Of a stretch of 10,146 nucleotides of DNA, positions 9,001 to 10,146 are shown piece by piece (the first letter of the stretch is position 1; the number at the start of each line of letters is the position of its first letter). Origin of the DNA: a virus (Duplodnaviria > Heunggongvirae > Uroviricota > Caudoviricetes). The position numbers are program-made. The DNA lies in the IMG/VR virus record IMGVR_UViG_2541047850_000007, positions 1-10,146 of that record; one strand, written 5' to 3'.

Positions 9001-10146
9001 TATGGACATGCACAGCCCGCAAGCCGTATCAGCTGGCATGGCGTACGATGGCAGAAACCAGGGCGATGACGGCGACATCGATCGCATACTGAAAACCATC
9101 TGAGACAAGGCCGGAGAAATCCGGCTTTTTTTTACGGGTCCTTTCCGGCATATGGACCCGTTACGGGGCGGCGACCTCGCGGTTTTTCGCTATTTATGAG
9201 CCTTTTCAGGGGGGTGGTGGTGGTTTTGTTGTTTGCTCTATCTTTATGAATAAAAAGGGAAAGATGCAAGCAATACACCAACCTGAAGCAGTAATTAAGT
9301 TGGTGTATTAATGAAATCGCACCTGATGAACAAAAAAAACATGGCTAAAAGCTGCCGTGTAAGTGCGACAGCGTTCGACAAGTGGGGAGTAACTCCCGTT
9401 GAGCGTAAAGGCCGTGAGGCGTTTTATGATGTTGCCAGCGTGATAGACAATAGGGTTAACAATGCAATTAGCCAGCTTACAAACGACAAAGGCGATATTG
9501 ACGATGATGAACTATTACGAGTCAGGATCAGATTACTGACAGCGCAGGCGGAGGCGCAGGAGCTTAAAAACGAGCGCGAACGAGGCGACGTTATTGATAC
9601 AGGGTTTTGCCTGTACGCGCTTTCAAAGCTGGCGAGCCAGATTTCTTCAATCATGGACAGCATCCCGCTTACTATGCAAAGGAGCTTTCCACACATTACC
9701 CCAGCCATGCTGGATGGGCTTAAAAGGGAAGTGGTTAAAGCCTGTAATGCCAGTGCCAGAGTTGCCGACAACCTCCCACAGATACTGGCTGATTACTTGA
9801 AAGAAACAACCGGAAACGTACCGGAAAAGTTGCAGCAGAATAAAGATAAGTAACGTAGTACGCTATGACTGAATCCGAAATACTGCGATTAATCCGCCGC
9901 GTCTCTGGAATCAGCCAGCAGGCTGACGAACAGACCACGCAGCCGGACAGCGTGACAGCCGAAAACTATGCGCGTGTGGTTGCTGAGGTGATGCGCCGTG
10001 ATGGTATCCAGCTTAATGATGTGGATATGCGCGACATACGGATCCGCGTTCTTGAAATGCTGGCCTACAATCGCCGCGTTGAGATGTATCGGGAGAAAGA
10101 AAAAATAACGTACCACTGGAAGAAGCCGGAGCGGTTACGGCGGTAA

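What the first reader, a model, noticed from the sequence alone, without database searches (positions are those of the whole stretch)
9135..9200. cosN almost identical to phage lambda's, embedded inside the element
The segment CGTTACGGGGCGGCGACCTCGCGGTTTTTCGCTATTTATGA reproduces the lambda cos junction, including the GGGCGGCGACCT 12-nt cohesive end, with a single substitution as recalled. Near-identity at cosN while the surrounding genes are only distantly lambda-like suggests selection to be cut by a lambda-type terminase, which is molecular mimicry of the helper packaging signal. A 7-bp inverted repeat CGGGTCC / GGACCCG immediately upstream could be a cosQ-like element. A G-rich tract GGGGGGTGGTGGTGG lies just downstream at 9209-9223.
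Basis: partly seen in the sequence, partly recalled or inferred. Interest (0 to 1): 0.8.

Follow-up and report, generated by a model that had tools for sequence, protein, structure and literature searches.

The report
Lambda-type cos site of a PICI satellite
This is the DNA-packaging (cos) site of a common E. coli phage satellite, which keeps the cutting site of lambda-like helper phages nearly letter-for-letter while using its own recognition site and small terminase; this trick has already been published for sister elements, so the finding is correct but not new.

Summary
Window 9160-9199 matches the lambda cos junction at 39 of 40 bases. The 12-nt cohesive end GGGCGGCGACCT (9166-9177) is exact. 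The cosQ heptamer GGGTCCT (9136-9142) lies at lambda's spacing. Within the 3.3-kb late module, this ~82-bp segment is the only DNA similarity to any of 50,697 phage records.

The window is an EcCICFT073-family phage-inducible chromosomal island (PICI). It carries int, alpA, primase, SSB, perC, a lambda E-like capsid gene, a D-like decoration gene, a Nu3-like scaffold gene, cos, a Nu1-family terS and a 93-aa gene. Its late module is about 95% identical to the published TerS-encoding PICI of E. coli IHE3034, which sits at the same cspD/clpS site.

Homology to EcCICFT073 runs through cosQ and cosN and breaks about 42 bp after the nick. There a cosB+rppA cassette is replaced by a different cosB plus terS. 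The terS DNA-binding domain is N15-like.

The "helper cos mimicry" reading is essentially right, but it is homologous retention or exchange rather than convergence. It has already been shown experimentally for EcCICFT073. Novelty is low. One small open point remains: the R3 box lies 8 bp further from cosN in satellites than in phages.

The parts
9107..9133 (+). Intrinsic-terminator-like hairpin plus T-run ending the capsid/decoration/scaffold-like gene block, just before cosQ
   Evidence: Terminator scan finds a 9-bp stem, 4-nt loop and T-run. The same sequence is present in EcCICFT073 and the IHE3034 island.
9136..9142 (+). cosQ homologue GGGTCCT (packaging-termination element in lambda)
   Evidence: Invariant in the window, four sister islands, lambda and PhiR5_1, with ungapped lambda spacing to cosN. 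That lambda cosQ lies at bp 48473-48479 is from my own knowledge.
9164..9179 (+). cosN: the 12-nt cohesive-end sequence GGGCGGCGACCT (9166-9177) plus 2 bp on each side; predicted nick sites are before 9166 (top strand) and after 9177 (bottom strand)
   Evidence: Exact single match. Invariant across 7 aligned phage and island sequences except one C>T in Z1323. The 16-bp definition of cosN is from PMC9026076.
9180..9199 (+). Conserved right flank of cosN (lambda bp 15-34, CGGnTTTTCGCTATTTATGA); the single difference from lambda is at 9183
   Evidence: Position 9183 is polymorphic among islands and phages (T, A or G).
9209..9235 (+). Island-specific cosB core: a (GGT)n G-rich tract followed by an N15-type R3 box, TTGTTGTT, at 9226-9233 (bp 61-68 from the cohesive end); proposed TerS binding site
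   Evidence: Conserved in sister islands. TTGTTGTT lies upstream of 33 of 34 terS genes with an N15-like DNA-binding domain, against a background of 0.017 per locus. In N15 the box falls inside the experimentally mapped R3, bp 48-60 (PMC9026076; N15 sequence).
9272..9309 (+). 11-bp perfect inverted repeat AATACACCAAC / GTTGGTGTATT abutting the terS start; possible extra TerS sites or a terS translation control; unresolved
   Evidence: The left arm is conserved among islands, while the right arm varies without compensatory changes.
9311..9853 (+). terS: Nu1-family small terminase of the island, with an N15-like DNA-binding domain and a lambdoid C-terminal half
   Evidence: Pfam Phage_Nu1 9e-23 and phrog_57 2e-52. 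Domain identities. dN/dS is 0.06-0.4. It is not related to Rpp.
7275..9103 (+). Upstream head-gene block: lambda E-like major capsid (7275-8330), D-like decoration (8333-8677) and a 137-aa Nu3/scaffold-like protein (8690-9103)
   Evidence: Pfam Phage_cap_E 1e-49 and HDPD 4e-18. The 137-aa protein matches the C-terminal domain of the lambdoid S49 protease/scaffold protein at 2e-10.
9865..10146 (+). 93-aa conserved island gene of unknown function (phrog_1561); homology with EcCICFT073 resumes here after the cassette
   Evidence: 91.8% identical to the CFT073 and IHE3034 copies.

Best explanation
Window 9136-9309 is the functional cos site of a TerS-type E. coli PICI of the EcCICFT073/IHE3034 family. 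After a lambdoid helper induces the island and it replicates into concatemers, the island's own Nu1-family TerS binds the island-specific cosB through its N15-like winged-helix domain. The proposed binding site is the G-rich tract plus TTGTTGTT box at 9209-9235. Through its lambdoid C-terminal half, TerS recruits the helper's large terminase (gpA type). That enzyme nicks the conserved cosN at 9166/9177 to give lambda-type 12-nt cohesive ends, and it needs the conserved cosQ to terminate packaging. cosQ and cosN are conserved because the helper enzyme, which the island does not encode, must cut them. cosB and the TerS DNA-binding domain are free to differ, and that difference gives the island its own packaging specificity. 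Shown here: sequence identity, the gene set, the cassette structure, family membership, and co-occurrence of the R3 box with the DNA-binding-domain type. Shown by others for sister islands: PICI cos sites are functional with lambda and phi80. Inferred: that this TerS binds this cosB, that it pairs with helper TerL, and the identity of the helper.
For: Identity of cosQ, cosN and their spacing to lambda and PhiR5_1. The cos segment is the only phage-like DNA in 3.3 kb. The element has int, AlpA, a D5-type primase, SSB, capsid, decoration and scaffold-like genes and TerS, but no TerL, portal, tail or lysis genes. The late module is 94.8% identical to the IHE3034 island, which Fillol-Salom 2018 lists as a TerS-encoding PICI at the same cspD/clpS site. 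Homology with EcCICFT073 is 92.8% up to 9207, is lost across cosB+terS against cosB+rppA, and is regained at 9865; RppA was identified through PDB entry 6HLK at 5e-31. EcCICFT073 cos sites allow lambda/phi80 transfer, and their cosB differs from the phage's (PMC6092414, PMC6739421). The TerS DNA-binding domain is 49% identical to N15 gp1 with the same indels but 23-25% to lambda-type proteins; residues 71-166 are 60% identical to PhiR5_1 Nu1. The N15-type R3 box sits upstream of 33 of 34 such terS genes. terS is under purifying selection. The cos+terS module is found at 80% coverage or more in 763 of 5426 complete E. coli genomes.
Against: There is no experimental evidence for this island or for any TerS-type E. 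coli PICI. In Fillol-Salom 2018 the two TerS-encoding islands (IHE3034 and 18098) transferred poorly or not at all from their native strains, and no helper was identified. The C-terminal 41 aligned residues of TerS are at most 51% identical to any of the four phage TerS proteins compared, so compatibility with a particular helper TerL is unproven. No IHF consensus and no clear R2/R1 equivalents were found in cosB. N15 and lambda share packaging specificity (PMC9026076), so an N15-like domain need not give exclusive specificity.
Confidence: 0.8

Rival explanations
1. The cos site is functional, but the helper's own TerS+TerL use it. The island TerS would then serve mainly as an interference factor, a decoy that titrates helper TerL or forms mixed TerS oligomers, rather than as the recognition subunit for the island cos.
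For: Plasmids carrying EcCICFT073 cos sites are transferred by lambda and phi80 without any island protein, at reduced efficiency. Lambdoid prophages with N15-type TerS and the same TTGTTGTT box exist in Escherichia (L015, L016) and could recognise the island cosB themselves. The TerS-encoding islands transferred poorly in the 2018 tests.
Against: Among islands, the TerS DNA-binding domain (90-96% identical) and cosB are conserved together while the C-terminal third diverges, which fits a working DNA-recognition pair. The R3 box sits 8 bp further from cosN than in phages. By the lambda spacing data, where a 3-bp deletion is already severe (PMC9026076), that offset should impair use by a phage TerS.
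Confidence: 0.12
2. The region is a decaying remnant of a lambdoid prophage (cos, Nu1 and head genes left after deletion), not a packaging signal under selection.
For: All late genes are lambda-family homologues, in an order that is permuted relative to lambda.
Against: The same roughly 11-kb architecture, with int, alpA and a primase, recurs at several att sites (cspD/clpS, phoQ, smrA and inside a prophage capsid gene) in hundreds of genomes. terS has dN/dS of 0.06-0.4 and no frameshifts. cosQ and cosN are invariant while the flanks have no DNA similarity to phages. Sister islands are experimentally mobile (PMC6092414).
Confidence: 0.03
3. The near-identity is convergent molecular mimicry: independent evolution toward the helper signal rather than shared ancestry or exchange.
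For: Only the functional segment resembles phages.
Against: The cosQ-cosN spacer, which is not known to be functional, is identical to PhiR5_1 in this island and one base from lambda in island AR0077. The similarity also extends through 20 bp to the right of cosN. This pattern indicates homology with recombinational exchange, maintained by selection, not convergence.
Confidence: 0.05

Closest known systems
TerS-encoding PICI of E. coli IHE3034, listed in Fillol-Salom et al. 2018 (ISME J, PMC6092414); NC_017628.1 about 920.4-930.7 kb
   Same: Same integration site between cspD/yljB and clpS. Same gene order. The late module (window 6867-9854) is 94.8% identical. The cosQ-cosN-cosB stretch is almost base-for-base identical. 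TerS matches at 172 of 181 aligned positions (stop codon included), about 95%.
   Different: The IHE3034 island has a second, inverted cos (cos2) between terS and the 93-aa gene. The window has only 11 bp there and a single cos. The primase and the region after alpA are different alleles.
EcCICFT073, the model Gram-negative cos PICI (Fillol-Salom 2018, 2019; Murialdo & Feiss 2022)
   Same: Same capsid, decoration and 137-aa block, and the same terminator, cosQ and cosN, 92.8% identical up to window 9207. Same 93-aa gene downstream. Lambda-type cosQ/cosN combined with a non-phage cosB.
   Different: EcCICFT073 has rppA, whose product forms a heterodimer with the helper's TerS, and has no terS. 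The window has a full-length Nu1-family terS and no rpp, and the two proteins show no detectable similarity. The cosB sequences differ: (ACC)n at bp 54-65 in CFT073 against (GGT)n plus TTGTTGTT in the window. EcCICFT073 lies next to phoQ and has cos2.
Phage lambda cos (cosQ-cosN-cosB) and Nu1/gpA terminase
   Same: Identical 12-nt cohesive end, cosQ heptamer and spacing, and 39/40 identity across cosN and its right flank. terS lies immediately downstream of cos.
   Different: No lambda R3/R2/R1 sequences and no IHF consensus. The distance from cosN to terS is 145 bp against 190 bp in lambda. TerS is only 37% identical overall and 25% in the DNA-binding domain. No gpA follows.
Phage N15 cos and gp1 (a cosB made of a single R3)
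   Same: Closest phage TerS (46.6% overall, 49% in the DNA-binding domain, with the same two deletions relative to Nu1). Shares the TTGTTGTT R3 box and has no evident IHF/R2/R1 array.
   Different: The N15 box is at bp 52-59, the window's at bp 61-68. The N15 cohesive end differs (GGGCGGCGTCCG). N15 encodes its own TerL.
SaPIbov5-type cos SaPIs and P4 (satellites carrying the helper's cos)
   Same: The same general strategy: a satellite carries the helper's terminase cleavage site (discussed in PMC6092414).
   Different: Unrelated sequences and helpers. P4 uses P2-type 19-nt ends, and SaPIbov5 needs a phage HNH/TerS/TerL set. Neither pairs a conserved cosN with its own Nu1-type TerS.

Membership tests
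lambda-type cos site | 12-nt cohesive-end sequence GGGCGGCGACCT within a partly symmetric cosN | tested here: met
   Exact match at 9166-9177 with identical flanks.
lambda-type cos site | cosQ heptamer GGGTCCT about 30 nt upstream of the cohesive end | tested here: met
   9136-9142, with an ungapped alignment to lambda.
lambda-type cos site | cosB with lambda R3-I1-R2-R1 elements | tested here: not met
   Similarity to lambda ends at 9199. There is no IHF consensus at up to 1 mismatch in 9200-9310. An N15-type box is present instead.
lambda-type cos site | Cleavage by a gpA-type terminase giving 12-nt 5' overhangs | not testable with these tools
   Needs end-mapping of packaged DNA or in vitro cleavage.
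Gram-negative PICI (EcCICFT073 family) | int at the left end, an AlpA regulator and a pri-rep replication module, mostly unidirectional, about 10-12 kb, no tail or lysis genes | tested here: met
   int 1-1239, AlpA 1649-1858 (PF05930, 2e-17), D5-type primase 3411-5243. 15-17-bp att repeats in L001 and L011 give about 11.3 kb. No TerL, portal, tail or lysis genes.
Gram-negative PICI (EcCICFT073 family) | Sequence relatedness to published members | tested here: met
   92.8-94.8% DNA identity of the late module to EcCICFT073 and the IHE3034 island.
Gram-negative PICI (EcCICFT073 family) | Helper-phage-dependent induction, packaging and transfer, and interference with the helper | not testable with these tools
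   Experimental. The helper for TerS-type E. coli islands was not identified in PMC6092414.
Rpp-type packaging redirection | An Rpp protein encoded next to cos | tested here: not met
   CFT073 RppA hits PDB 6HLK at 5e-31. The window's TerS, 93-aa and 137-aa proteins give no Rpp hit. TerS against RppA gives no alignment.
capsid-forming PICI (cf-PICI) | A complete head and packaging set (TerS, TerL, portal, protease, capsid, connectors) | tested here: not met
   Only capsid, decoration, scaffold-like and TerS genes are present.
Nu1-family small terminase | Match to Pfam Phage_Nu1 above the gathering score, an N-terminal winged-helix domain, and a gene adjacent to cos | tested here: met
   81.1 bits against a cutoff of 30. 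Alignment with Nu1 and N15 gp1. The fold of the DNA-binding domain was not modelled.

The most novel reading that the evidence does not exclude
TerS-type enterobacterial PICIs may encode packaging specificity by spacing rather than by a new recognition sequence. They keep the N15-type R3 box (TTGTTGTT) recognised by a widespread class of lambdoid TerS proteins, but place it 8 bp further from cosN. The offset from the TAYNTAYGA flank is 35 nt in 7 satellite loci from 3 genera, against 26-28 nt in 24 of the 25 phage-type loci and N15 where it could be measured (the other, L021, has boxes at both 27 and 35). Only the island's own TerS could then position helper TerL correctly on island DNA, while on helper DNA the island TerS would mis-position it. 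That would give redirection and interference from one protein without an Rpp.
Probability: 0.25. Interest if true: 0.5.

Novelty: already known. Interest (0 to 1): 0.2.

Why it matters
A lambda-type cos inside an island lets ordinary lambdoid phages move chromosomal islands between strains. These islands often carry virulence regulators such as PerC, or anti-phage cargo. That principle was established for EcCICFT073 in 2018-2019, so this window adds another allele of a very common element: the module is in about 14% of complete E. coli genomes. The residual value is that the TerS-type branch has no characterised helper or mechanism. The anatomy described here gives specific, cheap experiments to run: an N15-like DNA-binding domain, an R3 box shifted by 8 bp, a mosaic C-terminus, and cos alleles that track phage alleles.

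Tried and rejected
1. PDB sequence searches with the TerS, 93-aa and 137-aa proteins found no Nu1 or Rpp structure. Rpp membership is therefore rejected.

2. I tested whether the 93-aa protein is a fragment of the gpA N-terminus. There is no similarity.

3. A search for an IHF site (WATCARNNNNTTR, up to 1 mismatch) found none in cosB, and the window-wide count equals chance.

4. I first read three G[GT]TGGTG repeats (9205-9216, 9276-9287 and 9299-9309) as lambda-like R3/R2/R1 elements. I downgraded this: the right-hand copies vary without a pattern among islands, whereas the TTGTTGTT box has much stronger comparative support.

5. I considered the 11-bp inverted repeat before terS as a conserved RNA or DNA hairpin. 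There are no compensatory changes.

6. The first genome-contig scan, with the single TerS protein, found nothing. A scan with an alignment worked.

7. I compared the TerS C-terminus with four phages to try to name a helper. The best is PhiR5_1 at only 51% over the last 41 aligned residues, which is not decisive.

8. Literature searches for a characterised TerS-type E. coli cos PICI or for the PhiR phages found nothing specific.

Full report
**Observation.**
I aligned the window with the lambda cos region (phage DE3 record, cos annotated) and with lambdoid phage PhiR5_1.

- The alignment is ungapped and identical from the cosQ heptamer GGGTCCT (9136-9142) onward: through the 12-nt cohesive-end sequence GGGCGGCGACCT (9166-9177) to TTTATGA (9199).
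- The exceptions are the variable cosQ-cosN spacer and one base, T9183, where lambda has G.
- The first base of the quoted 41-mer, C9159, also differs from lambda. The match is therefore 39/40 from 9160.
- The cohesive-end 12-mer occurs once only, on the + strand.
- Against 50,697 phage records the segment scores E = 7e-15 for lambda-like phages. It is 95.8% identical over 71 bp to PhiR5_1, at E = 1e-23.
- When the whole late module (6800-10146) is used as the query at blastn sensitivity, the only phage similarity returned is this ~82-bp segment, 9129-9211.

**What the element is.**
The window begins at a tyrosine integrase and ends at the stop codon of a 93-aa gene. Its genes are as follows.

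| Coordinates | Gene or product |
|---|---|
| 1-1239 | integrase |
| 1649-1858 | AlpA |
| 3411-5243 | D5-type primase |
| 5773-6183 | SSB |
| 6194-6466 | PerC |
| 7275-8330 | lambda E-like major capsid protein |
| 8333-8677 | lambda D-like decoration protein |
| 8690-9103 | 137-aa protein resembling the Nu3/scaffold C-terminal domain of the lambdoid S49 protease |
| 9311-9853 | Nu1-family small terminase (TerS) |

- There is no large terminase, portal, tail or lysis gene.
- In strain 23CRST038 an element 98.6% identical sits between cspD/yljB and clpS. A 17-bp direct repeat there (15 bp in the IHE3034 locus) bounds about 11.3 kb.
- The cos+terS module occurs at 80% coverage or more in 763 of 5426 complete E. 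coli genomes.
- It is found at several integration sites, including next to phoQ, next to smrA, and inside a prophage capsid gene.

**Relation to published elements.**
- The CFT073 chromosome next to phoQ carries EcCICFT073. That island has the same capsid, decoration and 137-aa genes, followed by a 144-aa protein that matches the RppC structure 6HLK at 5e-31. This protein is RppA.
- The window is 92.8% identical to EcCICFT073 from 6825 to 9207, that is, through the terminator, cosQ, cosN and 42 bp beyond the nick.
- Similarity then vanishes and resumes at 9865 in the 93-aa gene. A cassette made of cosB plus rppA (plus an inverted cos2) in EcCICFT073 is thus replaced here by a different cosB plus terS.
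- TerS and RppA show no detectable similarity.
- Fillol-Salom et al. 2018 stated that the islands of strains IHE3034 and 18098 encode TerS, and placed a marker between RS04635 and RS04640 of IHE3034.
- That island lies at the same cspD/clpS site and has the same gene order. It is 94.8% identical over window 6867-9854. Its cos region is almost base-for-base the same, and TerS is about 95% identical.
- It differs in keeping an inverted cos2 after terS, which the window lacks.

**What is already established for this family.**
- EcCICFT073's cos sites, cloned on plasmids, allow transfer by lambda and phi80. Deleting both abolishes island transfer. The island keeps phage-like cosQ and cosN but has a different cosB (PMC6092414, PMC6739421).
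- Murialdo and Feiss (PMC9026076) place lambda R3 at bp 50-65 and N15's single R3 at bp 48-60. They stress that cosN-cosB spacing is critical.
- They argue that the phage TerS C-terminus is needed to bring TerL to the island cosN.

It is already published for sister elements.

**Anatomy of this cos site and its TerS.**
- The TerS is a mosaic. Residues 1-70, the DNA-binding domain, are 49% identical to N15 gp1 and share its two deletions relative to Nu1. They are only 23-25% identical to lambda, PhiR5_1 or CFT073 phage-4 TerS.
- Residues 71-166 are 60% identical to PhiR5_1 Nu1 and 42-44% to the other phage proteins.
- N15 gp1 is the best phage hit overall at 46.6%. No phage TerS exceeds 60%.
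- Among five island alleles the DNA-binding domain is 90-96% conserved, while the C-terminal third drops to 59-73% in three of them. There dS exceeds 1, against about 0.2 in the DNA-binding domain in two of those three (0.67 in N1420). This indicates recombinational replacement of the C-terminus.
- dN/dS is 0.06-0.41 throughout.
- I collected 34 loci from diverse Gammaproteobacteria whose TerS has the N15-type domain.
- Of these, 33 carry TTGTTGTT on the coding strand within 260 bp upstream of terS. The background expectation is 0.017 per locus.
- In N15 this box is bp 52-59, inside the experimentally mapped R3.
That tract is therefore part of the island's cosB, at the R3 position.
- No IHF consensus is present in cosB.
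- An 11-bp perfect inverted repeat (9272-9282 / 9299-9309) abuts the terS start. It is not maintained by compensatory change in sister islands, and I leave it unexplained.

**Mimicry or homology?**
The cosQ-cosN spacer is not known to be functional. Here it is CATATGGACCCG, identical to PhiR5_1. In island AR0077 it is CGATCCGACAGG, one base from lambda's TGATCCGACAGG. Island cos alleles thus track phage cos alleles. This points to shared ancestry with continuing exchange, kept by selection because the helper's TerL must cut there. It does not point to convergent mimicry.

**Most likely mechanism.**
- A lambdoid helper induces the island, which excises and replicates as a concatemer.
- Island TerS binds the island cosB R3-type site through its N15-like domain. 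Through its lambdoid C-terminal half it recruits helper gpA-type TerL.
- TerL nicks cosN at 9166/9177, packages the DNA, and terminates at a downstream cosQ/cosN.
- The sequence-level parts of this are shown. The protein-DNA and protein-protein steps and the helper's identity are inferred. No TerS-type E. coli island has been characterised, and the two tested in 2018 transferred poorly.
- At about 11.3 kb, four genomes (about 45 kb) would fill a lambda-sized head. This agrees with the phage-sized DNA reported for EcCICFT073.
- Whether the island's capsid, decoration and scaffold-like genes build smaller heads is unknown.

**Rival explanations.**
- The helper's own TerS uses the site and island TerS is mainly an interference decoy. 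This is possible, at about 0.12.
- The region is a prophage remnant. The conserved PICI architecture, purifying selection and wide distribution reject this.
- The similarity is convergent mimicry. The spacer identity rejects this.

**One point that may be new.**
The R3 box lies 35 nt after the TAYNTAYGA flank of cosN in all seven satellite-type loci where it could be measured. These are five E. coli islands plus TerL-less loci in Kosakonia and Superficieibacter. In phage-type loci and N15 the distance is 26-28 nt. Pluralibacter locus L021, which has a TerL, is the one phage-type locus that carries boxes at both offsets, 27 and 35. In lambda a 3-bp spacing change is already severe (PMC9026076). 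An 8-bp shift could therefore be the basis of island-specific packaging. This is a hypothesis only.

**Verdict.**
The phenomenon is already known, and the element is a close allele of a published PICI. Interest is low. A modest open question remains about how TerS-type cos PICIs achieve packaging specificity.

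Noticed in passing
window 9226-9233; loci L012-L045, L004-L007, L009, L011: The N15-type R3 box TTGTTGTT lies 35 nt after the cosN flank TAYNTAYGA in the 7 satellite-type loci measured (5 E. coli islands, Kosakonia, Superficieibacter). In phage-type loci and N15 it lies at 26-28 nt. L021 (Pluralibacter, with a TerL) has both positions.
   Followed up: partly
window 9209-9223 vs L008 2540-2600 (EcCICFT073 cos1): The window's cosB has (GGT)n on the top strand at bp 44-58. 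EcCICFT073 cos1 has its reverse complement, CACCACCACCAC, at bp 54-65, the R3-PICI proposed for Rpp. This may be an inverted shared element or a coincidence.
   Followed up: no
window 9854-9864; L011 12845-12910; L008 3276-3340; L004 3748-4002: A second, inverted cos (cos2) lies between the terS or rppA gene and the 93-aa gene in the IHE3034, CFT073 and O157 NE92 islands. It is absent from the window, 23CRST038 and N1420, where only 11 bp separate the two genes.
   Followed up: yes
L006 (E. coli N1420) 1-4700 and 4744-6726: The same capsid, decoration, cos and terS module sits in an element inserted into a lambdoid prophage major capsid gene; the truncated capsid gene, FI and head-tail genes follow it. 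This is a helper-embedded satellite of the kind described in bioRxiv 10.1101/2022.07.18.500453. That preprint presumes 11capE lacks terS.
   Followed up: partly
window 9311-9853 (codons 126-180): The C-terminal third of terS has dS of 1.05-1.38 against three sister alleles, compared with 0.19-0.67 in the DNA-binding domain. This indicates allele replacement of the presumed TerL-binding region while the DNA-binding domain and cosB stay linked.
   Followed up: partly
window 7275-9103: The island carries lambda E-like capsid, D-like decoration and Nu3-like scaffold genes but no portal or protease. In EcCICFT073, deleting the capsid or decoration homologue did not reduce island transfer, and the same deletions were made to test their role in interference with lambda (PMC6092414). 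Their role remains unknown.
   Followed up: partly
window 5244-5530: The intergenic region after the primase aligns to its own reverse complement in the sister locus (69.9% over 246 bp). It holds one exact and two near-consensus IHF-type sites (5295, 5355, 5463). It is probably the island's replication origin.
   Followed up: no
window 1869-2810: A 313-aa ORF whose last ~85 residues are the Icd-like/phrog_6196 domain, with an unassigned N-terminal 225 residues. Window 1965-2564 has no counterpart in the closest genome, 23CRST038, which has small reverse-strand genes there.
   Followed up: no
window 6194-6466: A full-length PerC-family transcriptional activator (Pfam 3.9e-43) is carried as island cargo; this is a virulence-regulator family in pathogenic E. 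coli.
   Followed up: no
window 9272-9309: A perfect 11-bp inverted repeat ends 1 nt before the terS ATG and covers its likely ribosome-binding region. The left arm is invariant among islands, while the right arm drifts without compensation.
   Followed up: partly
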